From Escherichia phage BME3: DNA of 64,000 nucleotides. The stretch lies in the sequence record PP239276.1; one strand, written 5' to 3'. Made by a program: the position numbers and the translations under genes. The notes under the pieces were generated by a model, which was given only the letters and a program-made list of their open reading frames with translations, was not told where the DNA came from and did not search any database. Positions 4,354 through 34,467 of this stretch are shown here, in pieces (the first letter of the stretch is position 1; the number at the start of each line of letters is the position of its first letter).

Positions 4354-4638
4354 TTATTTTTTAATGTTTTGCCCTACAAAATTAATCACTTCCTTAAGCT
4401 GTTTCTCAGTCATGATCGTGCCTGGCAATTCTTCTTTGATTTCTTCCGGTAGATAGATATTACCGCGCCAGGTTAATAAACAACCGTTTTGATCTTCACA
4501 GATAGAATAAGAGAAGATCCACTCATTATCATTCTCAAGCTCCCAAAAGCACAAAAAATCTTCTTTCCCCAGGTTTTCAACGGATAAGCATAATCCGCGA
4601 CGTGCTGCATAGTTGGAAAGTGCTTTTGTGATCTTCAT
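4354..4638 (-). CDS. hypothetical early protein (94 aa)
   Basis: ORF track; ATG at 4638 follows leader hairpin and promoter. Confidence 0.6.
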   Translation of the reverse strand: MKITKALSNYAARRGLCLSVENLGKEDFLCFWELENDNEWIFSYSICEDQNGCLLTWRGNIYLPEEIKEELPGTIMTEKQLKEVINFVGQNIKK

Positions 4639-10431: not shown

Positions 10432-10794
10432 TTATTCGTAAATTTTACCGCTTTCTACCCATACCATAACACGGCGCATGTTATCCCATGCATCTTGTCG
10501 CAGATTTAAGGCATGCAATTCTTCCGTGGTGCTCATGCCTGGCACGGGCTTGCTATATGTTACAAAAAGATCGCCAGCATATTCATAAGCCAGAGTAAGA
10601 TCACATTGAATCATCTTTTTAATCATAGCATTAAGCATCATATTAGCGGCATGTTGATCACGTTTTAGCGGTAGCGTTGCGATCTGTGAGCGATAGCTTT
10701 CGATACGTGCATCCACTGCATCACGCGAAAGATTTTTCACGTCATCGCGGAAAGATACCAGGTTAAACATTATAGTATTGATTTGCTTGCTCAT
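10432..10794 (-). CDS. hypothetical early protein (120 aa)
   Basis: ORF track. Confidence 0.6.
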   Translation of the reverse strand: MSKQINTIMFNLVSFRDDVKNLSRDAVDARIESYRSQIATLPLKRDQHAANMMLNAMIKKMIQCDLTLAYEYAGDLFVTYSKPVPGMSTTEELHALNLRQDAWDNMRRVMVWVESGKIYE

Positions 10795-10817
10795 TGTGTT
10801 ACCCTTTCTTTGATTTG

Positions 10818-10876
10818 GCGGGAAACCATTTCCCGCCTTATGTGGTATATATTACTAAATTATTTTTCAGTGTCAA
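10818..10876 (-). promoter_or_regulatory. early promoter plus leader hairpin module
   Basis: TTGACA (10871-10876); box ataccacataagg; hairpin ggcgggaaaccatttcccgcc (10818-10838). Confidence 0.6.
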
Positions 10877-10879
10877 GTC

Positions 10880-11152
10880 TTAAAGCAAAAACGCTACATC
10901 TTTCGCTTTTAGTGTAGTGTCAATCATGTTCGGGCTTTTATAATCCACAAAGCGCGCGGTTTTTTCAATAGCGAAACCGAGATAATCTTGCTTATTGAAG
11001 TTACATTCTTTTTTAAATGTTTCCCGTGCCACTGTGATCGCTGCGTCCAGGGATAAACGCCCGTCAATGTTGATGTTAGCGAAAGATCCGCCACCGCGCA
11101 TAGGTTTACCAGTGATACCCATTACGATCATTGATGCGCTATATGATGCCAT
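10880..11152 (-). CDS. hypothetical early protein (90 aa)
   Basis: ORF track. Confidence 0.6.
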   Translation of the reverse strand: MASYSASMIVMGITGKPMRGGGSFANINIDGRLSLDAAITVARETFKKECNFNKQDYLGFAIEKTARFVDYKSPNMIDTTLKAKDVAFLL

Positions 11153-11174
11153 GATTATTTCTCTCTTCTGTTAT

Positions 11175-11236
11175 GAGCGGCACTATTGCCGCCCCTCGAC
11201 AAGATGAATACTACGCTACCAGGTGAGGAACGTCAA
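11175..11236 (-). promoter_or_regulatory. outermost early promoter plus leader hairpin
   Basis: TTGACG (11231-11236), 17 nt, TAGTAT (11208-11213), hairpin gagcggcactattgccgccc. Confidence 0.55.
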
Positions 11237-11271
11237 CCATTTTTTTAATCTTTTTTTCATTTCTTTTTTGC

Positions 11272-11300
11272 TTGCTATCTATAAAGGAAACGGCTATTAT
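11272..11300 (+). promoter_or_regulatory. divergent sigma70-like promoter (TTGCTA-17-TATTAT)
   Basis: -35 at 11272-11277, -10 at 11295-11300, upstream of ATG 11348. Confidence 0.45.
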
Positions 11301-11347
11301 CTTTCTACCGCGCCAACCAGGGCGCACATCAAAGAAAGGGCGATACC

Positions 11348-11614
11348 ATGACAAATACTCCTTTACATCTCATGCACTCATTGGGCTGGCAAGGCGGCAC
11401 GGTGCACCAGGTAGCAAGCGCAACGGGCTTAAAGGTTGAAACCGTTCTCAACCTGGGCGATCATAAAGTGGAAGAGATAGAACATTTTGATCCGTTCGCT
11501 GATGGTTATCTATGGGCTTGCAGTGGCGGTGGGGAAAGCAAGATCCCACCAGGGGCGCGGGGCGACATGTATTTTTGGTTAGGTGTCCTATCCTGGCAAG
11601 AAAACAAAAAATAA
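11348..11614 (+). CDS. hypothetical protein (88 aa)
   Basis: ORF track; RBS aaagaaaggg. Confidence 0.55.
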   Translation: MTNTPLHLMHSLGWQGGTVHQVASATGLKVETVLNLGDHKVEEIEHFDPFADGYLWACSGGGESKIPPGARGDMYFWLGVLSWQENKK

Positions 11615-11616
11615 TC

Positions 11617-11645
11617 TTGACAAGCCCAGGGATCGGGCTTATACT
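11617..11645 (+). promoter_or_regulatory. strong sigma70-like promoter (TTGACA-17-TATACT) with no obvious downstream ORF
   Basis: -35 at 11617-11622, -10 at 11640-11645; spacer contains hairpin agccc-n7-gggct. Confidence 0.45.
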
Positions 11646-11875
11646 GTTTTACATACAGAAGAGGAAGCGCCACCCCCACGGCGTAAAGGCGGGGCTAACA
11701 TACCAGGGGGCACTGGTTGGAAGGTTGATCGCCGGTAGCTCGTCTAAAATAAATTTGTAAAGAAATGTAAAGATAAAAATAATCGCTTGCTTTTGTTGTT
11801 GGTTATGCTATTCTTATTGTATGGCGAGGGGACACGGGAGCGCGAGACAAACACCACCCCTGCGCGTTATTCTCT

Positions 11876-11990
11876 AAATGAGAAAAATTCTCATTTGCTA
11901 ATGATTCTCATTCTCTTAGTGAGAATGATTATCACTTACATAATTAAATGATAATGATTCTCATTTACAAATGAGAATGATTATCATCCG
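11876..11990. repeat. Array of Fur-box-like palindromes
   Basis: aatgagaa/ttctcatt, tcattctc-ttagt-gagaatga, tctcattt-aca-aaatgaga; gagaatgattatca core recurs. Confidence 0.5.
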
Positions 11991-12010
11991 CACACCCATA
12001 AAAACACGAA

Positions 12011-12225
12011 ATTGAACTTTTCATTTTTGATTTTTCTACGGAAAAAGGCAAAAAAACTTTAAATAAACTGGGGAATTTTTTAAAAATTGAAGTTTTCATT
12101 TTCAAAATCTGGATAGAAATACATACAAAAACTTTAAATAATTTTGACCAAACTTGAACTTTTCATTTTCAAAATTTGTATCCAAAAATCTGTAAAAACT
12201 TTAAATAATTTTGTCCTTTTTATAA
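12011..12225. repeat. Three imperfect tandem repeats of about 68-75 bp
   Basis: Units start near 12011, 12086, 12153; each has ttgaacttttcattttcaaaat and aaaactttaaataa. Confidence 0.6.
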
Positions 12226-12427
12226 AAATGATTTTACTGTTCTGTTATAAATAGTAGTTAAGAGATAGTATGCCTTTTAAAAACCAGATATCATAATCCA
12301 ACAAACAAATTAAATAATTTATTAACAGAGTACAAAATAATATTTACTCTGAATATATTATTCAGAGGGTGAATTTCCGTACATGAAACCCACACCCCTT
12401 TTTATAAAAATAAAAATTTTCAAAATA

Positions 12428-12979
12428 TCAGGAAATATCAGATTGTGCTTTTAGATAAACAGCAAGGTCTGTATGCCATTTTCCTAAAAGATTTTGTCCT
12501 TTCCAACAGTCCTTATTTTCCACGTCACGATCCCACATCCCCATTTTGATACCATAAATAGAATCATAAGGGCTTGCCTCTACGAACTCCTTATCTGCGT
12601 AGGTTATAAGTTTATTTTTGAGATCTTCATTTTGTGTGTATTTAAGATACAAACCACGTTTGACAATCTTCTCCCGTAAAGAAGTCCAGGTATCTTCATC
12701 ATAATCTTTAACTAATCTGCCTAGTCGCTTATAATATGCTTGTTCTTTTTCTCCTGTATATCTTAGATCTCCGGTTAAAATAGAAGATGCAATACTGTAA
12801 TCATAAAACAAACATGCTTTTCTCCACATCATATATTGTTCCACACAAGTAAATTCAACAGAACTTGTAATAGAATTATTATACTTGGGTGCTAAAGGTT
12901 CAATAAAAGATGATAGATACCAGTTGCTAAATTCATCTTTTGCTGAAAAGAAGAACACATACTTATCAGTAATCCGCAT
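12428..12979 (-). CDS. NADAR-domain (YbiA-like) protein
   Basis: FFFSAKDEFSNWY, CVEQYMMWRKA and GMWD motifs fit NADAR pattern; TAA-ATG coupling to upstream gene. Confidence 0.6.
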   Translation of the reverse strand: MRITDKYVFFFSAKDEFSNWYLSSFIEPLAPKYNNSITSSVEFTCVEQYMMWRKACLFYDYSIASSILTGDLRYTGEKEQAYYKRLGRLVKDYDEDTWTSLREKIVKRGLYLKYTQNEDLKNKLITYADKEFVEASPYDSIYGIKMGMWDRDVENKDCWKGQNLLGKWHTDLAVYLKAQSDIS

Positions 12980-13969
12980 TTACATCTCCTTACTGTATAC
13001 TAATTTGCCACCATATTGTGTAATAATTTTTTGAAGATTTTCCAAATCAGAAACACTTACTGTTTCTGTATAACCGTCTTTCAACTCTCTTTCCGTTAAA
13101 ATACCAGTTTTTAATTTTTTCTTTATAGCTCTTTCAGCAGCCTTACATTGTTTTACTGTGCTAAAATCATATAAACAAATACGCTCCATAGGAAACATAT
13201 TACGGCTATTTTGAATTTTTAATCGTCTATCACTATCTTTAGCTATACCAAACTTAAGAGCAACTATAATATTATCATCCTTAACAATATTAATATATAA
13301 CTGCTGCTGACTATGACCAGCACACATAGGACAACCTCGACCGAGGCTTAATAAATTATGAGCACTCCCTATCTGCTCACCATGCACAAGACAAAGATAT
13401 TTAAACTTACCTATAGAAGAGGGTTTGGTAATCCAATCTACCCAGACATACCCTTTCCCTTCTACTTCCTTTTTTACCCTATAGGTGATCTGGTCTTCTG
13501 TATACCGATAGTTCCCACAACGACACGGAATATACCCTCGTTTAAGGTTATCTCCTTCAGAGTAAAATTTACCATCACAAACACCTGCTTGAACATATTC
13601 ATCATGAGAGCAAACAGGACATTCAACCATCCAGATAATATTCCTACATCCTTTACCCCGTGTTCCTGTGTTAGTGAAGATAGTGCCTTCCTTAAATTCC
13701 CCTGTAGAAAAGAAATCTGCAATATGTTGATCGTCGGACATTGTTTGTGACTTCCTTATATTCTTCCTCCTACATTGTGGACAACCGCTACCACATTTAA
13801 AACTGTTAATACTTGTAGTATCCCATTTATAACCACAATGGCACAACAAATCAAGTTTTGTGTGGACCCCTTTCCATTGTCCCGTCCATCCTAAGATTTG
13901 GATTTGCTTACTCTCTGCTATTGGTATACACTCTTCTTTATATTGTTCCCATGATTTTGGTGCTGCCAT
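12980..13969 (-). CDS. Zn-ribbon-rich protein, possible GIY-YIG-superfamily nuclease-like C-terminus
   Basis: CxxC pairs (GCPQC, CPVC, GCPMC); C-terminal LYINIV...FGIAKDSDRRLKI; RBS aagaggag; function low confidence. Confidence 0.55.
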   Translation of the reverse strand: MAAPKSWEQYKEECIPIAESKQIQILGWTGQWKGVHTKLDLLCHCGYKWDTTSINSFKCGSGCPQCRRKNIRKSQTMSDDQHIADFFSTGEFKEGTIFTNTGTRGKGCRNIIWMVECPVCSHDEYVQAGVCDGKFYSEGDNLKRGYIPCRCGNYRYTEDQITYRVKKEVEGKGYVWVDWITKPSSIGKFKYLCLVHGEQIGSAHNLLSLGRGCPMCAGHSQQQLYINIVKDDNIIVALKFGIAKDSDRRLKIQNSRNMFPMERICLYDFSTVKQCKAAERAIKKKLKTGILTERELKDGYTETVSVSDLENLQKIITQYGGKLVYSKEM

Positions 13970-14006
13970 CTACTACTCCTCTTATTAAATCTGGCATTAA
14001 TGCAAG

Positions 14007-14029
14007 AAAACCCGCCGAAGCGGGTTTTT
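14007..14029. terminator. bidirectional terminator aaaacccgc-cgaa-gcgggtttt
   Basis: Perfect GC stem flanked by A- and T-tracts; follows stop of 14044..15171 (-). Confidence 0.6.
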
Positions 14030-14043
14030 ATTTGCTGGCTTAC

Positions 14044-15171
14044 TTAAAACACACTTGCCAAAGTTGCACCATTGGTGATAGTTGGTTCCAGAACAATACG
14101 GAAAGAATCTTCTGGATCATCACTAAACACAACGATTTTACCGCCTGTGATAAGATCTGCTTTCATTTTTGTCGCATTCAATGGAATTCGAGCATCGCCT
14201 TCATCATCAAAAACCACGTAAGAGCTATTAGCAAGGGCTTCTTTAGAGTCTGCATCACTTGGAGATGACAAGTACACGTCTAGTGTGCACGAACCACCTA
14301 AAAAGATTGCAGGTGTAAAGTTATGCCAACTAGATACCCAGCTAACTTTCTGAAGTTTTCCATTAATAACAACGCTGCTGATATCCCATTTATTACCACC
14401 ACCTAAAGAAACGCCCATCATAGAGATGCATTCTTTAAAGGATAAATCAGGGTAGAAATTAAGTTCTTCTACTATACCTTGGATCACATCAAAGGACAAC
14501 TCTAAACTTACATCCCAAAGTCTTTGGAAATTATCAAAGTGTGCTTTGTTATCCAGGTTTTTATCTAAATAGTCAATCATAGTTTCTAGTGAGATTTTAT
14601 CATAATTAAAATTATAAAACACACGACTAGGACGATTTAAAAAGAATTCAGAGATAAAACCACTGTTTTTAGTCAGAATAAACAGTTTATTACCACTGCC
14701 AGTACCATCTAACAAAGTGAGAAGTGCTTCTTGATCTTGTTTCTTCTCATACACTTTATCAAACTCGTCAAAAATAATCACTGCTTTGTCGGTGATCTTG
14801 CTAATAAGTTCAATGAAATTAGCATCGCTGTAGGCTTGAGTAACCATAATAGTTGGAATACCTTCTTCTACAAGGTCACGACTAATGAGTTTGGCTAACA
14901 TAGTTTTACCACTGCCCTTAGTTCCTGTCAGGAGCAAACCTGTATTTTTACCTTGTGCACTCCGGCGATGGAATGTACGAATAACGTGATTTGCTCGTTT
15001 TTCTGTTTCACCATACAGAACATCCGGTACACCTGTTAGATTACCACGGCTTAAAAAATAATTGCCAAGGGGATCACGACTAACAGTATAGAATCCAGGT
15101 GGAAGATAGTTAGATTCCACGCCCATATCTTTATTTACACTTACAATATCACCATAAATCGTGTATTTCAT
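14044..15171 (-). CDS. classic-clade AAA ATPase (paralog A)
   Basis: Walker A GTKGSGKT, Walker B IIFDEFDK, LLTLLDG, sensor-1-like FILTKN. Confidence 0.7.
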   Translation of the reverse strand: MKYTIYGDIVSVNKDMGVESNYLPPGFYTVSRDPLGNYFLSRGNLTGVPDVLYGETEKRANHVIRTFHRRSAQGKNTGLLLTGTKGSGKTMLAKLISRDLVEEGIPTIMVTQAYSDANFIELISKITDKAVIIFDEFDKVYEKKQDQEALLTLLDGTGSGNKLFILTKNSGFISEFFLNRPSRVFYNFNYDKISLETMIDYLDKNLDNKAHFDNFQRLWDVSLELSFDVIQGIVEELNFYPDLSFKECISMMGVSLGGGNKWDISSVVINGKLQKVSWVSSWHNFTPAIFLGGSCTLDVYLSSPSDADSKEALANSSYVVFDDEGDARIPLNATKMKADLITGGKIVVFSDDPEDSFRIVLEPTITNGATLASVF

Positions 15172-15182
15172 TTTAACCCCTT

Positions 15183-15620
15183 TTATCTTTGTTGAGATGA
15201 ACGAATTAAATCAGCAGCAAATTCAATCAGATACACTTTTGGTGCAATAATAATTTTTAGCCAATCGAAATTCGAAAAGAAAATAATAAATCCTAAAAGG
15301 AAAAAGAAAGCAGAGACAACAAGACCAACAATAGGTAAAGCAGATACTCCACCATAGCGATCTCGTGACCACAGGCATTCTTTATCTTTAATTGCTTTTA
15401 TGAGGTTCCGCACAGCAATAAAAGCAATAAACATAAAGCAAATACCAAAAAATTGCCATAAACCTGCGGATACTGCTTTCCACATTAATAATTGATGGAT
15501 TACTTCTGGAATTTGTTGTTTTCCAAACTCTACAACATCACTCATTGTTTGAATAGTGACGTTAACCATGTTCAGAAGTACATCCGTTGCTTTATCTGCG
15601 ATTGCGTTTGTTTTACTCAT
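15183..15620 (-). CDS. membrane protein (145 aa)
   Basis: ORF track; hydrophobic helices (WQFFGICFMFIAFIAV, ALPIVGLVVSAFFFLLGFIIFF). Confidence 0.6.
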   Translation of the reverse strand: MSKTNAIADKATDVLLNMVNVTIQTMSDVVEFGKQQIPEVIHQLLMWKAVSAGLWQFFGICFMFIAFIAVRNLIKAIKDKECLWSRDRYGGVSALPIVGLVVSAFFFLLGFIIFFSNFDWLKIIIAPKVYLIEFAADLIRSSQQR

Positions 15621-15634
15621 TCTTTATTCCTCAC

Positions 15635-15808
15635 TTACCTTTTAAGGAAACCAATCATAATGAAGAACCACATCCATGCAGGAGAGATAATAAAGCCAAA
15701 GAAACCGCAAATAACCGCTTTCTTAATCTCTTCCAGACAACCCACCAGGAAAAGAACGAGTGAGACTACAATCCAGATAGCCATAAACACTGTAACAAAG
15801 AAACTCAT
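15635..15808 (-). CDS. possible 57-aa membrane peptide
   Basis: Hand-translated (MSFFVTVFMAIWIVVSLVLFLVGC...); RBS gggagaaagg. Confidence 0.35.
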   Translation of the reverse strand: MSFFVTVFMAIWIVVSLVLFLVGCLEEIKKAVICGFFGFIISPAWMWFFIMIGFLKR

Positions 15809-15828
15809 ACCTTTCTCCCATCTGTATT

Positions 15829-16080
15829 TTAAAATTCAATCACCACTTTATCGAGGTGCTCTGCTTCAACTTGATCTAATGTTAACACCTCAACTAAACC
15901 CTTGTCAATACCTAATTTAATAACATCAACATATTGTCCAAACAGATCCTGGATAGATATCTTGTGTTCGACAACAACCACCACTTCATTCCCTTTTGTG
16001 AATTCTCTCCATACACGTCCACATTTGAAAATAAAGTCTGCTTCGTCTTCTGTTATCATTTTAGGTTTGATACTTAACAT
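15829..16080 (-). CDS. hypothetical protein (83 aa)
   Basis: ORF track. Confidence 0.55.
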   Translation of the reverse strand: MLSIKPKMITEDEADFIFKCGRVWREFTKGNEVVVVVEHKISIQDLFGQYVDVIKLGIDKGLVEVLTLDQVEAEHLDKVVIEF

Positions 16081-16631
16081 TATAAAACTCCGTACTCCGG
16101 CTCAAAATCATATTTTTCACAAATCATGTCCCAGCGTTCGTTGCCGAAGCTGCGACCACAAATTGCATCGTAAGCATAATGCTCTGCTAACCATTTTACA
16201 ACAGTGTCTACATCATTATCAAGTGATAATCTGAATTCTTTGCCATAGCGCATACGAAGAACAAATTCATCCCCTTCTTCAAACAAGTGCATATGGCTTT
16301 TTGCATAAGAAGCCAGGTTGAAAAAAGATACCTCTTCCCAGCATTCTTTTTCCACTGCAATCCCGTGATCAACAACTAAAGCACCGATAACGCGATACAT
16401 AATAGGGCTAAACAGTGCGCTTGAGCTAGGCTGCTCTTCAACTATAGACCAACCTGTTCCCTGCCAAATTTCATTTTTGAACCATTGTTCCATGTTATTT
16501 CCTTTTTCGTCTACAAGGGATCGGTTACGCATTTCAAACCATTCCCCTTCGCAAAAGTATTTATGTTTAACACGTTTACCTTTTAACATTGCTTCTTTGG
16601 CTTCTACCCAAGTCAGATCGGTGTTTTGCAT
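16080..16631 (-). CDS. hypothetical protein (183 aa)
   Basis: ORF track 16080..16691 trimmed to ATG at 16631 (MQNTDLTWVEAKEAML) with RBS gaggag. Confidence 0.6.
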   Translation of the reverse strand: MQNTDLTWVEAKEAMLKGKRVKHKYFCEGEWFEMRNRSLVDEKGNNMEQWFKNEIWQGTGWSIVEEQPSSSALFSPIMYRVIGALVVDHGIAVEKECWEEVSFFNLASYAKSHMHLFEEGDEFVLRMRYGKEFRLSLDNDVDTVVKWLAEHYAYDAICGRSFGNERWDMICEKYDFEPEYGVL

Positions 16632-30717: not shown

Positions 30718-31374
30718 ATGACTGTTAAGCATATTTCTTTTGATGTATGGAATACTCTTATTACTGCTAATCCTTTGTATGCAGAAGAACGCAACAAGGT
30801 TATTGCCGAGTATGCCTCTTGTTCTGAGGTAGAAGCAGCTACCGTATATAAAGAGGTAAAAACTCTCCTGGATTTAAAAGCAGAAAAAGGCATTTGTGGA
30901 ACATCTAGAAATGCTTGGGAAACACTTTCTGCTCATTTGAACATTGATCTTGATAAGGTGGATGGGTTAAAAAGAGATTGTTTGGCAATGTTTATAAAAC
31001 ATCCTCCAACGTTGAATCCTGAACTTTGCAAGAAGTTGGAAGAGCTAAGTTCAACCTACTCTTTGAGTATTAAAAGCAATACCAATTTTGTACCTGGCAG
31101 TTTCTTAGCTGTATATTCTGGCTTGACAAAATTACCATTCGATTTTATGCATTTTTCTGATGAGTTTTGCTTGTGTAAACCAGATCCCAGGTTTTTTAAA
31201 CTCTCTTTTGATGAAATGGTAACGTTTGATCTCGCACCAGAGGAGATTTTACACGTTGGAGATAGTTTGATCTATGATGGAAAAGCTGTTGACATAGGGA
31301 TGAAGTTCTGTCATATTATTAATCCAGAAGACTTGTTGGCTAAACTTAAAAAAGAGGAACTTATTAATGCGTAA
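30718..31374 (+). CDS. HAD-superfamily phosphatase
   Basis: N-terminal ISFDVWNTLI matches HAD motif I (DxDxT-type); start trimmed to ATG 30718. Confidence 0.6.
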   Translation: MTVKHISFDVWNTLITANPLYAEERNKVIAEYASCSEVEAATVYKEVKTLLDLKAEKGICGTSRNAWETLSAHLNIDLDKVDGLKRDCLAMFIKHPPTLNPELCKKLEELSSTYSLSIKSNTNFVPGSFLAVYSGLTKLPFDFMHFSDEFCLCKPDPRFFKLSFDEMVTFDLAPEEILHVGDSLIYDGKAVDIGMKFCHIINPEDLLAKLKKEELINA

Positions 31375-32224
31375 TCAAATTCAACATTTTGCTAATACTT
31401 TTACTAACCTGAAGGAAGCAAAATTTAACATTGCAGATTATTCCAAACTGAAGTTTGGTAGTAACCAGGCAGCAAAAAGAATGGGGCGCATTTTGGCTGA
31501 AAGTTTCTTTTCCAAGTATGAAGAACGACTGGTAAATGAAAGTTTTGTTGTTATTCCATCTCCATATAACTATGTGAAAAATGCAGCTACAATGTTATCT
31601 GAACATTTTGCAGATCACCTCAACTACCTAATCTCTATCAAAGGAGGTAAAGCAGTGGAGTGGGATATCGTTCATCGTAAAGTGAGCTATATCAATGATT
31701 ATGGATTTCTTAGCAAAGAAGATCGTAAGGCTTTGATCGATGGTGACACTTTCTCTATCAACCGTGATTTCTGGAGTAATAAAACTCTGATTTTCATTGA
31801 TGATGTTAATATTACAGGAACGCACGAAGAAAAACTTATTGAAATTTTAGACAAAGAAGGTGTTGAAAACGATACGTTTTTCCTGTACTTTGCAAAGTAT
31901 GAAGGTACAGAAGCCAATACCGAAGCTGCACTTAACTTCAACTATATCAATAATCTGGCAGCTTTTATTAAAATGATTAAGCAAGAAACTGATGCTAAAT
32001 GTTTGGTTCGTCCTATTAAGTATCTAATGAGTCAAAGCGAAGTTGATTTTAAAATTGCACTTTCACAACTTCCTTTGTATTATGTAGAACAACTGTTCTT
32101 TGGTTGCCTTGCAGAAGGTTACAATAACATTGAAAAATACAAAGAGAACTTTGATTTCCTACGTCAATTTTTTGAAAGCAATATTATCGACAAATCTAAT
32201 GTTAAAGGGGATTATTATGTCTAA
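31367..32224 (+). CDS. type I phosphoribosyltransferase (PRTase)
   Basis: PRPP-binding motif TLIFIDDVNITGTHEE. Confidence 0.6.
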   Translation: MRNQIQHFANTFTNLKEAKFNIADYSKLKFGSNQAAKRMGRILAESFFSKYEERLVNESFVVIPSPYNYVKNAATMLSEHFADHLNYLISIKGGKAVEWDIVHRKVSYINDYGFLSKEDRKALIDGDTFSINRDFWSNKTLIFIDDVNITGTHEEKLIEILDKEGVENDTFFLYFAKYEGTEANTEAALNFNYINNLAAFIKMIKQETDAKCLVRPIKYLMSQSEVDFKIALSQLPLYYVEQLFFGCLAEGYNNIEKYKENFDFLRQFFESNIIDKSNVKGDYYV

Positions 32225-32933
32225 TAAAGTAATGACTTTCGGAGATCCTATTACCAATATTACAGAAAAAGATTTTGGGCGCGTAGCAACAGATAAAGAT
32301 GGTGTCTTAAGAATTCGTGTACAAGGCATTACAGCACAGGATGAATATGCTGTGTATGTTTCAGGTCTTAACTATATTGATGATCGCATTACACAAAACT
32401 TTGCACTGATCGGTGGTGTAGAGAAAATGTACTGGGAAGATGAAATTGTAACAAGTTATCCAGCAGGTATCATTGAGGTATACGGTGATCTTTTAGCAGC
32501 AGCCGAGAGAGGCGATATAGACGCTATAGCACACTGCTGTAACTGTTTTTGCACTATGGGTAGTGGTATTGCACCAAAAATTAAAAGCAAGTGGCCTGGT
32601 GCGTTTAAAGCAGATTGTGCCACTACACGTGGTGATTATAAAAAATTAGGTACGTTTACCAAATATACAGAAAACAATTTGACAATTTATAATTTATATG
32701 GACAATATGGTTATAGTCGTCGTGAGGAAGGTAAGCGTGACCTGAATTATGAAGCTATCTACAATGCGCTAGATAGTATGGGAGACGATGTTGTATCTTC
32801 AGGCGGTAAAATTGTAGGTTTACCAATGCTTGGTTGTGGTTTGGCTGGAGGTTCTTGGAATATTGTAAAACTTATGATCGAAGAAACTCTAGTAAACAAA
32901 GGTTTAAATGTAATTGTTTACAAACTGAAATAA
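32217..32933 (+). CDS. macro-domain protein (putative ADP-ribose binding/hydrolase)
   Basis: GDIDAIAHCCNCFCTMGSGIA and GLPMLGCGLAGGSW resemble the two macro-domain glycine-rich motifs; start trimmed to ATG 32217. Confidence 0.5.
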   Translation: MSNKVMTFGDPITNITEKDFGRVATDKDGVLRIRVQGITAQDEYAVYVSGLNYIDDRITQNFALIGGVEKMYWEDEIVTSYPAGIIEVYGDLLAAAERGDIDAIAHCCNCFCTMGSGIAPKIKSKWPGAFKADCATTRGDYKKLGTFTKYTENNLTIYNLYGQYGYSRREEGKRDLNYEAIYNALDSMGDDVVSSGGKIVGLPMLGCGLAGGSWNIVKLMIEETLVNKGLNVIVYKLK

Positions 32934-32942
32934 GGAGAAAGT

Positions 32943-33149
32943 ATGGCAGGTGTTTTAGCAGTATTAGGTTGTTTTATTGTTGTGTTCTTGATTGTGTTAA
33001 TCCCTAGTTGGCTACTGCTTTTAGCATACAACTATATGATTGACATTATCGGCTTAGACTGGCATCATGTTCCTGTAACGTTTTGGAGTGTAGTCTGTGT
33101 GACGTTCATTCTTGCGGTACTCCGTGGTATCTTTCAATCTAACAAATAA
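32943..33149 (+). CDS. small membrane protein (68 aa)
   Basis: ORF track; two hydrophobic helices. Confidence 0.5.
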   Translation: MAGVLAVLGCFIVVFLIVLIPSWLLLLAYNYMIDIIGLDWHHVPVTFWSVVCVTFILAVLRGIFQSNK

Positions 33150-33163
33150 GAGAGGATCTTTAT

Positions 33164-33412
33164 ATGCGTAAAGTAAATGTTGAAGTGCTTGAAAAATTTA
33201 TAAACACCCGTGATTGTACTATCGGCAAGGTTTACGAGGCTATTCTCATTGAAGATGGGGATGAAGTTCCTGCCCCGTATCATGCCTTTAACGGTCAGGT
33301 TAGCAAAGTGGAAGGTGGTCTTGCTATTTGCTTTATTGATGATGTAGGTGATGCTGTAGCTTTCCCTATCATTAACAAAGAAGATAAACTTAAAATTACA
33401 GAACTGAACTAG
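33164..33412 (+). CDS. hypothetical protein (82 aa)
   Basis: ORF track. Confidence 0.5.
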   Translation: MRKVNVEVLEKFINTRDCTIGKVYEAILIEDGDEVPAPYHAFNGQVSKVEGGLAICFIDDVGDAVAFPIINKEDKLKITELN

Positions 33413-33489
33413 TTGACTTTCTTTAAAAACAGTTTATAGTATAAGACATAGAGCGGAGGATTGTCCTCCGCATTAAAGAGGAGAAAAGA

Positions 33490-34467
33490 ATGCAACTGGG
33501 TTTCCCAATTATTGATGTGGTTGTTTTAGTGGGTATTTTAGTGTTGTCGATTTGTATTGATTTCTTTGGACACAGAGAAAACAAAGAAATTTCATTTAAA
33601 TCTGCAATTGGTTGGTCAATTTTCTGGATTGGGGTATCATTAGCCTACTATGGTTTTGTATACTTCCAACACGGTGCTGATTTTGCGAGCTTGTTTTTGA
33701 GTGGGTATGTGTTGGAGAAATCTCTTTCTGTAGATAACTTAGTAGTATTTGTGGCAGTATTCGCAAGTTTTGGTATTAAAAGCACACACTTGCAACACAA
33801 GATTCTACTTTGGGGTATTGCAGGTGCGATTGTCTTCCGAGGTGTGTTTGTAGCAGTAGGCACTTACTTGTTGAGTTTGGGCTGGTATGTTAATATCTTC
33901 TTCGGTGCGGTCATCCTTTTCTGTGCAGCTAAAATGGTATTCGCTGGAGATAATGACGCAGAAGTTGATTACTCTAAACACTGGGCTACTCGCATTGTTC
34001 GTAAACTGTTCCCTGTATCTGATCAGATGGATGGCGAGAAGTTCTTCACAATCAAAAATGGTGTTCGTGTAGCAACTCCGGCTCTGGTTTGTGTGTTTGT
34101 AATGGAAATGGTTGACGTAATCTTTGCAGTAGACTCTGTTCCAGCAGTAATTGCAGTGACACAAGAACCTCTGCTTGTATTTTCTTCAATGCTGTGTGCA
34201 ATTTTAGGTTTACGTGCTCTGTTCTTTGTCCTTAGTGTTGCACTGAAATATTTGGTTCATCTGGAGAAAGCAGTTATCGTAGTCCTGGTATTTGTGGGTG
34301 TAAAACTGATGTATCACCCGTTTGCAGAAACTCTGCACGCAAAAGTGAGTTTCCTGCCAGCACACATTGATCCGACGATCAGTATGTATATTGTGTTAGG
34401 TACTCTGGGGCTGGGTGTTATTGCAAGTTTAATCTTCCCTGAAAAAGAAGACCAAGCTGTTGCTTAA
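33490..34467 (+). CDS. terC: TerC-family integral membrane protein
   Basis: Signature EKSLSVDNLVVF and multiple TM helices. Confidence 0.8.
   Translation: MQLGFPIIDVVVLVGILVLSICIDFFGHRENKEISFKSAIGWSIFWIGVSLAYYGFVYFQHGADFASLFLSGYVLEKSLSVDNLVVFVAVFASFGIKSTHLQHKILLWGIAGAIVFRGVFVAVGTYLLSLGWYVNIFFGAVILFCAAKMVFAGDNDAEVDYSKHWATRIVRKLFPVSDQMDGEKFFTIKNGVRVATPALVCVFVMEMVDVIFAVDSVPAVIAVTQEPLLVFSSMLCAILGLRALFFVLSVALKYLVHLEKAVIVVLVFVGVKLMYHPFAETLHAKVSFLPAHIDPTISMYIVLGTLGLGVIASLIFPEKEDQAVA

What the first reader, a model, noticed from the sequence alone, without database searches (positions are those of the whole stretch)
12428..13969. AT-rich NADAR plus Zn-ribbon gene pair: candidate ADP-ribosylation eraser island
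12428..12979 carries NADAR hallmarks (FFFSAKDEFSNWY, CVEQYMMWRKA, GMWD). NADAR enzymes have been shown to reverse ADP-ribosylation of guanine in DNA, the modification installed by DarT-type toxins. It is translationally coupled (TAA-ATG) to a 329-aa protein with several CxxC Zn ribbons and a possible GIY-YIG-superfamily-like C-terminus. The pair is visibly more AT-rich than its neighbours and is bounded by the repeat-rich region 11870-12430 and a bidirectional terminator at 14007-14029, consistent with a separately acquired cassette. Together with the macro-domain gene at 32217..32933 the phage would carry two distinct ADP-ribose-removing folds.
Basis: partly seen in the sequence, partly recalled or inferred. 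Interest (0 to 1): 0.7.

Follow-up and report, generated by a model that had tools for sequence, protein, structure and literature searches.

The report
Known anti-DarT NADAR beside homing-type nuclease
This phage gene is a near-identical copy of a NADAR enzyme already shown to strip ADP-ribose from DNA guanines and defeat the bacterial DarTG1 defence, and its zinc-ribbon neighbour is an unrelated, well-described type of selfish phage nuclease, so the finding is real but ordinary.

Summary
The window comes from a Justusliebigvirus (phi92/VEcB-like E. coli myovirus). Both genes are real and lie on the minus strand. The 329-aa gene (13969..12980) is upstream and abuts the 183-aa NADAR gene (12979..12428) through TAA-ATG.

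The NADAR matches Pfam PF08719 (E=5.8e-36) and keeps all five active-site residues of the solved NADAR 8BAU. It is 181/183 identical to the NADAR of BASEL phage Bas60. That protein, AdfN^Bas60, was shown in Nat Commun 2025 to neutralise DarT1 and restore phage growth on DarTG1 hosts. It had no effect on DarTG2 and needed no other phage factor.

The two genes are not a functional pair, and the "acquired cassette" idea fails. GC3 is unremarkable, and the gene order is conserved across two genera. The macro-domain gene is a homologue of T4 Tk.4 (AdfM, anti-DarTG2).

Verdict: already known, low interest.

The parts
12428..12979 (-). adfN-type NADAR gene (183 aa). It is a DNA guanine-N2 ADP-ribosylglycohydrolase. 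Predicted active-site residues are E47, K54, K84, R88 and E134.
   Evidence: Pfam PF08719 E=5.8e-36. PHROG 1017 E=1.3e-49. PDB 8BAU E=7.4e-12, with E43/K50/K75/R79/E125 aligned to identical residues. 98.9% identical to Bas60 bas60_0111. Function of that ortholog shown in PMC11825919.
12980..13969 (-). T5orf172-family (GIY-YIG superfamily) endonuclease gene with CapR-type zinc-ribbon DNA-binding modules (329 aa). Homing-type or domesticated nuclease, functionally independent of the NADAR.
   Evidence: CapR PF21817 E=1.9e-25, 3 stretches; T5orf172 PF10544 E=6.7e-4. PHROG 681 'endonuclease' E=8.3e-69. ICP1 'putative homing endonuclease' homologues. Class described in PMC10448857.
13319..13903 (-). 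Coding region for the three zinc-ribbon DNA-binding modules (about aa 23-217: C43xC45..C63xxC66; C117xxC120..C149xC151; C193xxH196..C213xxC216). This is the hypervariable part of the gene.
   Evidence: Cys/His positions. Nucleotide identity to sister phages falls to 51-81% only between about 13930 and 13330. Sister phages carry 201-nt or 408-nt insertions at 13879, giving 4 or 5 modules. Homologue lengths cluster around 325-330, 390-402 and 465-477 aa.
12983..13318 (-). Coding region for the C-terminal GIY-YIG-fold (T5orf172) nuclease domain (about aa 218-329). Y225, K239, G241, I242, R249, E279, D298, G299, E302 and T303 are invariant in 44 homologues.
12977..12990 (-). Gene junction: Shine-Dalgarno AGGAG (12990-12986) inside the end of the endonuclease gene, stop TAA (12982-12980) and NADAR ATG (12979-12977).
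   Evidence: Read directly from the sequence.
14007..14029 (.). G+C-rich hairpin (UUCG tetraloop on the minus-strand transcript) with A/T runs on both sides, between the ATPase gene and the endonuclease gene. Terminator-like in both directions.
   Evidence: MFE -17.8 kcal/mol on both strands, z -4.0 and -3.6, 0 of 200 shuffles as stable. Not listed by the consensus scan.
12364..12399 (-). Hairpin just downstream of the NADAR stop codon. A possible, weak transcript end because it has no clean U-run.
   Evidence: Centroid structure -16.4 kcal/mol in the fold of 12330-12430 minus strand. phAPEC8 annotates a terminator at the equivalent place.
32217..32933 (+). Macro-domain gene elsewhere in the window (238 aa; macro domain about aa 88-236). 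Homologue of T4-like Tk.4/AdfM and a candidate thymine-ADP-ribose (DarTG2) eraser. Not linked to the locus.
   Evidence: PF01661 E=2.3e-7. PDB SCO6735 5e3b E=4.7e-15, TARG1 4e-10, DarG 5m31 1e-3. PADLOC DarG E=7.7e-14; NCBIfam DarG 50 bits against cutoff 250. tblastn to tk.4 of PP01 and 44RR2.8t. AdfM function reported in preprint 10.1101/2025.11.20.689424.

Best explanation
The 183-aa gene is the Justusliebigvirus copy of adfN (anti-DarT factor NADAR). When the phage infects an E. coli carrying DarTG1, the DarT1 toxin ADP-ribosylates the N2 of guanines in phage DNA and blocks replication. The NADAR enzyme binds the ADP-ribose and hydrolyses the ribose-guanine bond. Pyrophosphate is held by K54, K84 and R88, and the distal ribose by E47 and the catalytic E134. 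This restores the DNA and allows replication.

The 329-aa gene directly upstream is a separate entity. It is a T5orf172 (GIY-YIG-fold) nuclease guided by three CapR-type zinc-ribbon DNA-binding modules, of the homing-endonuclease class described in ICP1, T5-like and other phages. It shares a transcript and an abutting stop/start with adfN only because the genome is tightly packed. It plays no part in ADP-ribose removal.

Shown here: domain identities, active-site conservation, orthology, fold of the nuclease domain, synteny and variability.
Shown in the literature for the 98.9%-identical protein: DarT1 neutralisation and rescue from DarTG1 on ectopic expression, with no effect on DarTG2.
Inferred: the native role in this phage, expression timing, neutrality of T126A and A178T, and whether the nuclease still homes.
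For: NADAR identity:
- PF08719 E=5.8e-36.
- 8BAU alignment with all five ligand/catalytic residues identical.

Orthology:
- 181/183 identical to Bas60 bas60_0111, 181/183 to Bas61, 97.8% to phi92 gp223.

Function of the ortholog:
- PMC11825919 reports DarT1 neutralisation, full-titre rescue of RB69, T5 and Bas25 on DarTG1, no effect on DarTG2, and no need for additional phage factors.

Orphan status:
- The neighbours are an AAA ATPase and the endonuclease. PADLOC finds no DarT.

Endonuclease:
- CapR x3 plus T5orf172 and PHROG 681.
- Invariant nuclease-domain residues in 44 homologues.
- Architecture and repeat-number recombination match Barth et al. 2023.

Independence of the two genes:
- ATPase is 100% and NADAR 98-100% identical between sister phages, while the endonuclease is 70-100%.
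- Divergence is confined to the zinc-ribbon modules.
- NADAR homologues elsewhere lack this neighbour.
Against: - No deletion of adfN in a Justusliebigvirus has been reported in the papers read, so the native contribution is untested.
- No in vitro assay of AdfN^Bas60 was found in the text read. The evidence is genetic and from ectopic expression.
- NCBIfam's riboflavin-intermediate N-glycosidase domain model TIGR02464 also scores above its cutoff (109.5 against 73.7 bits), so a YbiA-like metabolic activity is not excluded.
- For the endonuclease, the gene appears to be present in essentially all Justusliebigvirus records: about 56 records at 60% identity or more, against 55 with the NADAR. 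No empty site was found, which is not what an actively homing element usually shows.
- The tight TAA-ATG junction is kept in all Justusliebigvirus loci read.
Confidence: 0.8

Rival explanations
1. The two genes form a functional two-component cassette. The zinc-ribbon nuclease would recognise or process ADP-ribosylated DNA and the NADAR would remove the adduct, with the pair acquired as one unit.
For: The genes abut (TAA-ATG) with a Shine-Dalgarno sequence inside the upstream gene. The adjacency is kept in every Justusliebigvirus locus read. The pair lies between a hairpin and a repeat region. In Seunaviruses the NADAR is also next to a nuclease gene, an HNH type.
Against: AdfN^Bas60 alone neutralises DarT1 and rescues three unrelated phages, 'without additional phage factors'. 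Phapecoctaviruses have two other genes between them. FBKp34 has the NADAR with no such neighbour. The same nuclease family occurs in several copies per genome in NADAR-less phages such as ICP1. GC3 is ordinary.
Confidence: 0.04
2. The NADAR acts mainly as a YbiA-like N-glycosidase on reactive riboflavin-pathway intermediates or other small molecules. This is a metabolic housekeeping role rather than counter-defence.
For: TIGR02464 'riboflavin biosynthesis intermediates N-glycosidase' scores 109.5 bits against a cutoff of 73.7. The catalytic position carries Glu, as in YbiA/NADAR families, not the His of T4-type phage NADARs. Public records annotate it 'YbiA-like N-glycosidase' or 'GTP cyclohydrolase II'.
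Against: Direct genetic evidence shows that the 98.9%-identical protein counters DarT1/DarTG1. The authors place it with non-YbiA bacterial NADARs. E. coli YbiA itself could not rescue cells from DarT1, whereas this protein's ortholog does. No riboflavin genes were seen next to it.
Confidence: 0.06
3. The 329-aa protein is no longer a selfish homing endonuclease. It would be a domesticated nuclease or DNA-binding regulator whose fast-changing zinc-ribbon modules track a moving target, such as competing phages, satellites or host DNA, as Odn and CapR do in the ICP1/PLE system.
For: The gene is fixed at one locus in two genera, with no empty site seen. Nuclease-domain residues are invariant while the DNA-binding modules are hypervariable in number and sequence against 98-100% identical flanks. 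Barth et al. propose Odn-like domesticated T5orf172 nucleases in the same phage group (inny, muut, Mt1B1_P17), though in a different RepA_N-bearing gene.
Against: There is no nucleotide-level match of the gene in 5,426 complete E. coli genomes, so no sign of recent exchange with chromosomal satellites or prophages. Module shuffling is also typical of bona fide homing endonucleases of this family. No target is known.
Confidence: 0.25

Closest known systems
AdfN^Bas60 (anti-DarT factor NADAR of BASEL phages Bas60/61/62; Johannesman et al., Nat Commun 2025, PMC11825919)
   Same: Same gene. It is 181/183 identical to Bas60 bas60_0111, has the same length, sits at the same locus after the ATPase and endonuclease, and is in the same genus.
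   Different: Two substitutions (T126A, A178T), neither at an active-site position. The upstream endonuclease allele has 3 modules here against 5 in Bas60.
AdfN^T4 (gp30.3), the T4-type 'phage NADAR' family
   Same: NADAR fold, an orphan antitoxin-like enzyme, guanine-ADP-ribose specificity and anti-DarTG1 role.
   Different: It belongs to a different NADAR clade. T4-type enzymes carry His at the position that is E134 here. AdfN^T4 does not neutralise DarT1 outside infection, whereas AdfN^Bas60 does.
DarG1 (DarT1-associated NADAR antitoxin) and P. nicotianae NADAR (PDB 8BAU)
   Same: Same superfamily and chemistry. All five ADP-ribose-contacting residues of 8BAU are conserved.
   Different: There is no adjacent DarT1 toxin. 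It has Glu rather than the Asp that DarG1 uses at the catalytic position, and it lacks the DarG1 N-terminal extension described in the papers.
T5orf172 homing endonucleases with CapR-type Zn-finger repeats (ICP1 gp165/gp174 and relatives; Barth et al. 2023, PMC10448857; Netter et al. 2021, PMC8096241)
   Same: N-terminal repeated CapR/DUF723 zinc-ribbon modules plus a C-terminal T5orf172 nuclease domain. Alleles differ by in-frame gain or loss of repeats through recombination between repeats.
   Different: About 32% identity to the ICP1 proteins. The gene is fixed at one locus in two genera rather than sporadic, and homing has not been demonstrated.
T4 Tk.4 / AdfM (macrodomain anti-DarTG2 factor; HIDEN-SEQ preprint 10.1101/2025.11.20.689424)
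   Same: The window's macro-domain protein (32217..32933) aligns with tk.4 products of T4-like phages over the macro domain (E about 1e-13, about 30-34% identity) and is of the TARG1/DarG class. Like T4, this phage would carry one NADAR and one macrodomain eraser.
   Different: It has an extra N-terminal region of about 85 aa. Its neighbours are a ComF-like PRTase and TerC. Its activity is untested.

Membership tests
NADAR superfamily (Pfam PF08719 / DUF1768) | Profile match above the curated gathering score | tested here: met
   124.6 bits against cutoff 35.1, E=5.8e-36, profile positions 9-154 of 163.
NADAR superfamily (Pfam PF08719 / DUF1768) | Conserved ADP-ribose-binding and catalytic residues (8BAU E43, K50, K75, R79, E125) | tested here: met
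   They align with E47, K54, K84, R88 and E134.
NADAR superfamily (Pfam PF08719 / DUF1768) | NADAR three-dimensional fold | not tested
   Only a sequence-level match to the solved structure 8BAU (E=7.4e-12). No model of this protein was built.
AdfN (phage orphan anti-DarTG1 NADAR) | Orthology to an experimentally validated AdfN | tested here: met
   181/183 identical to Bas60 bas60_0111, at the same locus.
AdfN (phage orphan anti-DarTG1 NADAR) | Orphan: phage-encoded with no cognate DarT toxin next to it | tested here: met
   The neighbours are a T5orf172 endonuclease and an AAA ATPase. PADLOC gives no DarT hit.
AdfN (phage orphan anti-DarTG1 NADAR) | Neutralises DarT1, restores plaquing on DarTG1 hosts and is guanine-specific | not testable with these tools
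   Reported for AdfN^Bas60 in PMC11825919. Not measured for this exact sequence.
T4-type 'phage NADAR' clade (gp30.3) | Histidine at the position of 8BAU E125 | tested here: not met
   Glu134 occupies that position. The authors also place AdfN^Bas60 outside this clade.
DarG1 (DarT1-linked NADAR antitoxin) | Encoded next to DarT1, with Asp at the catalytic position | tested here: not met
   No DarT neighbour, and Glu134 rather than Asp.
YbiA-type N-glycosidase (NCBIfam TIGR02464) | Profile match above the curated cutoff | tested here: met
   109.5 bits against cutoff 73.7. This is a domain-level model. Riboflavin-intermediate activity is untested, and the published phylogeny places the ortholog with non-YbiA NADARs.
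T5orf172 / GIY-YIG-superfamily homing endonucleases | T5orf172 nuclease domain | tested here: met
T5orf172 / GIY-YIG-superfamily homing endonucleases | Repeated CapR/DUF723-type Zn-finger DNA-binding modules | tested here: met
   PF21817 E=1.9e-25 in 3 stretches. PF05265 and PF21817 are recorded on all close homologues. Cys/His ligand pattern.
T5orf172 / GIY-YIG-superfamily homing endonucleases | Mobility: sporadic presence or absence with an empty target site in close relatives, or biased inheritance | tested here: inconclusive
   No empty site was found. About 56 records carry it at 60% identity or more, against 55 with the NADAR. There is strong allelic turnover limited to the DNA-binding modules.
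T5orf172 / GIY-YIG-superfamily homing endonucleases | Site-specific DNA cleavage | not testable with these tools
   This needs an in vitro or in vivo cleavage assay.
DarG/TARG1-class macrodomain erasers (AdfM-like), for the gene at 32217..32933 | Macro domain of the TARG1/DarG class, homologous to T4 Tk.4 | tested here: met
   PF01661 E=2.3e-7. 5e3b, TARG1 and DarG hits. tk.4 hits. The NCBIfam DarG equivalog is below its cutoff (50 against 250 bits), so it is not a DarG antitoxin itself.

The most novel reading that the evidence does not exclude
Two modest extensions are not excluded.

(a) This AdfN keeps the Glu that characterises the NADAR and YbiA families, which also remove cytidine-linked ADP-ribose, rather than the His or Asp of the guanine-only T4-type and DarG1 enzymes. 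It may therefore erase a broader set of nucleic-acid ADP-ribosylations than DarT1's, including C-ADPr and RNA adducts.

(b) The adjoining T5orf172 nuclease is fixed in two genera yet has hypervariable DNA-binding modules. It may be a domesticated arms-race nuclease, or it may drive co-conversion of the adjacent counter-defence gene between co-infecting phages.
Probability: 0.15. Interest if true: 0.4.

Novelty: already known. Interest (0 to 1): 0.12.

Why it matters
It matters little as a discovery. The NADAR's counter-defence role against DarTG1 has been published for an essentially identical protein from the same phage genus, and the neighbouring nuclease belongs to a described class.

The practical value is in annotation.
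- Public records label this gene 'hypothetical', 'GTP cyclohydrolase II', 'YbiA-like N-glycosidase' or even 'DNA methyltransferase'. It can be renamed adfN.
- The neighbour can be named a T5orf172/CapR-type endonuclease.
- The macro-domain gene can be flagged as an AdfM-like candidate.

For phage therapy candidates of the phi92/VEcB group, this predicts resistance to DarTG1 and possibly to DarTG2.

Tried and rejected
- **Composition as evidence of acquisition:** rejected. The pair is at the 10th percentile for GC but the 26th-29th for GC3, and it matches the two genes to its right.
- **Consensus promoter/terminator scan:** did not list the 14007-14029 hairpin and gave only weak promoter-like sites, 15 against 10.0±3.1 expected. 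The hairpin was confirmed by folding instead.
- **tRNA and Rfam searches of 11000-14300:** nothing above noise. No tRNA was found, and the only Rfam hit was rsmX at E=0.39, 21.8 bits against a gathering score of 56.
- **Sequence search of the endonuclease against PDB:** only chance antibody hits.
- **Paralogues of either gene in the window:** none.
- **Nucleotide search of the endonuclease gene in 5,426 complete E. coli genomes,** to test exchange with satellites or prophages: no match.
- **NCBIfam and PADLOC for the endonuclease:** no family.
- **Literature search for Fur boxes in these phages:** nothing relevant.
Full report
**Where the window comes from.** Megablast of 11500-14500 finds 139 phage records. 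The best is Escherichia phage VEcB at 99.4% over the full length, followed by other Justusliebigvirus members (Stephanstirmvirinae; phi92, alia, muut and BASEL phages Bas60-62). The locus is therefore part of a well-sampled lytic coliphage genus.

**Check of the observation.**
- Both ORFs exist at the stated coordinates but on the minus strand. The 329-aa ORF runs 13969..12980 and the 183-aa ORF 12979..12428.
- The junction reads AGGAG-ATG-TAA-ATG, so the upstream stop codon is followed at once by the NADAR start.
- The NADAR call is solid. Pfam PF08719 gives E=5.8e-36 and 124.6 bits against a cutoff of 35.1, and PHROG 1017 gives E=1.3e-49.
- The upstream protein has three CapR homology domain stretches (PF21817, E=1.9e-25) and a marginal T5orf172 match (20.6 bits against cutoff 20). 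PHROG 681 'endonuclease' gives E=8.3e-69.
- Its cysteines form three ligand sets: C43xC45..C63xxC66, C117xxC120..C149xC151 and C193xxH196..C213xxC216.
- The repeat region, the 14007-14029 hairpin (-17.8 kcal/mol on both strands, z about -4) and the macro-domain gene are all real.
- The composition claim is weak. The pair has GC 0.355 against a window mean of 0.378 (10th percentile). GC3 is 0.27 for both genes, the 26th-29th percentile of 73 ORFs, and about equal to the next two genes on the same strand. What stands out is the GC-rich left flank.

**What the NADAR is.** By tblastn the protein is 98.9% identical to the product of bas60_0111 of phage PaulScherrer (Bas60) and to that of Bas61. It is 98.4% identical to the Bas62 product and 97.8% to phi92 gp223.
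- The two differences from Bas60 are T126A and A178T.
- Johannesman et al. (Nat Commun 2025, PMC11825919) named this protein AdfN^Bas60. They showed that it neutralises DarT1 toxicity in E. coli.
- Its ectopic expression restores RB69, T5 and Bas25 to full titre on DarTG1 hosts. It does not help T5 on DarTG2.
- Unlike T4 AdfN, it needs no additional phage factor.
- Alignment to the solved P. nicotianae NADAR (8BAU, E=7.4e-12) puts E47, K54, K84, R88 and E134 opposite E43, K50, K75, R79 and E125. These are the ADP-ribose-contacting and catalytic residues described by Schuller et al. 2023.
- The protein carries Glu at the key position, not the His of T4-type phage NADARs or the Asp of DarG1. This fits the authors' placement of AdfN^Bas60 in a separate clade.
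- NADAR homologues occur in 716 phage records, mostly large myoviruses.

**What the neighbour is.** An AlphaFold2 model built on 44 homologues has mean pLDDT 91.
- Y225, K239, G241, I242, R249, E279, D298, G299, E302 and T303 are invariant in the family.
- tblastn finds relatives annotated 'putative homing endonuclease' in ICP1, with three or four copies per genome, and in many Vibrio, Aeromonas, Klebsiella and jumbo coliphages. It also finds a T5 protein.
- Barth et al. 2023 (PMC10448857) describe this exact architecture: a T5orf172 nuclease plus repeated CapR/DUF723 zinc-finger DNA-binding domains. They also describe alleles that gain or lose repeats by recombination between them.
- The same pattern is seen here. 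The window, VEcB and Bas61 have three modules (325-329 aa). muut, arall and KKP_3264 have four (396-397 aa). Bas60 and alia have five (465-467 aa). The indel maps to 13879.
- Among these phages the ATPase is 100% identical and the NADAR 98-100% identical at the protein level, but the endonuclease is 70-100%.
- In 60-nt windows, divergence is confined to about 13930-13330, the zinc-ribbon modules. The nuclease domain and both flanks stay at 90-100%.

**Are the two genes a unit?** The evidence says no.
- The published single-gene activity needs no partner.
- In Phapecoctavirus (ukendt, Mt1B1_P17, phAPEC8) two small genes separate the endonuclease from the NADAR.
- In Klebsiella phage FBKp34 the 64%-identical NADAR has no such neighbour within 4 kb.
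- In Seunaviruses (SSE121, 4MG) the NADAR sits in a replication/recombination module and is followed by an HNH endonuclease.

Nor is the pair a recent cassette. The order ATPase-endonuclease-NADAR is shared by two genera whose genes here are only 57-64% identical in protein.

One caveat concerns the 'homing' label. No genome with an empty site was found. About 56 records carry the endonuclease at 60% identity or more, against 55 with the NADAR. Active homing is therefore unproven and a domesticated role remains possible. A nucleotide search of 5,426 complete E. coli genomes found no match, so there is no sign of recent exchange with chromosomal satellites.

**The macro-domain remark.** The 238-aa product of 32217..32933 has a macro domain of the TARG1/DarG class.
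- PDB hits are 5e3b at 4.7e-15, TARG1 at 4e-10 and DarG 5m31 at 1e-3. PADLOC DarG gives 7.7e-14.
- It aligns with tk.4 products of T4-like phages.
- A 2025 preprint shows that T4 Tk.4 (AdfM) counters DarTG2.
- The phage thus mirrors T4 in carrying a NADAR and a macrodomain eraser. This is homology-based inference only.

**Verdict.** The sequence features are real and the NADAR interpretation is correct, but it is already published for the same gene. The 'pair/island/acquired cassette' reading is not supported. Novelty: already known. Interest: low.

Noticed in passing
window 11896-11987; also 55-69, 250-269, 1161-1233, 4523-4537: Palindromic TGAGAATGATTATCA-type motifs resemble the E. coli Fur box (consensus GATAATGATAATCATTATC, recalled from my own knowledge). 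There are 11 hits at 2 mismatches or fewer against 0.26 expected, and 5 hits at 3 mismatches or fewer to the 19-mer Fur consensus against 0.01 expected. The cluster downstream of the NADAR gene is conserved in all Justusliebigvirus and Phapecoctavirus loci fetched and absent from the four other loci. No literature on this was found. It could be iron-responsive control, or the operator of a phage repressor.
   Followed up: partly
window 12009-12229 (and 12301-12320): Three tandem ~70-bp direct repeats lie in the very AT-rich (GC 0.24-0.30) convergent intergenic region. Each carries TTGAACTTTTCATTTTCAAAAT and AAAAACTTTAAATAATTT. These motifs occur essentially nowhere else in the 64 kb. The region holds no tRNA or Rfam family. 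Iteron-like, and a possible origin or regulatory region.
   Followed up: partly
window 10432-12088 versus 12400-16300: The left flank is unusually GC-rich (0.43-0.49, 98th percentile) and is 84-88% nucleotide-identical to Phapecoctavirus. The NADAR, endonuclease and ATPase genes are only 66-72% identical to the same phages. A boundary between differently diverged segments therefore lies just downstream of the NADAR gene.
   Followed up: partly
window 31367-34467: The macro-domain gene (AdfM/Tk.4-like) overlaps the end of a ComF-like phosphoribosyltransferase gene (PF15610, E=3.7e-41). A TerC-family membrane protein gene follows about 550 bp downstream, after a small ORF. The macro protein has an extra N-terminal region of about 85 aa that is absent from the tk.4 matches.
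   Followed up: partly
L010 4001-4959 (Salmonella phage SSE121) and L011 4001-4946 (phage 4MG): In Seunaviruses the NADAR gene overlaps or nearly abuts an HNH endonuclease gene inside a ligase/exonuclease/endonuclease VII/DNA polymerase module. This is a second, independent case of a nuclease gene next to a phage NADAR.
   Followed up: no
public records matching window 12428-12979: The same NADAR gene is annotated variously as hypothetical protein, GTP cyclohydrolase II, YbiA-like N-glycosidase, swarming motility protein (in a more distant homologue) and DNA methyltransferase. Five near-identical genomes are deposited as 'Campylobacter phage', which looks like a host mislabel.
   Followed up: no
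window 14044-15171 (minus strand): The 375-aa AAA+ ATPase (PHROG 2376, E=6.6e-108) is annotated 'FtsH-like protease' or 'ATPase or Zn metalloprotease' in relatives. It is 100% conserved in protein among sister phages, while the gene next to it varies strongly.
   Followed up: no
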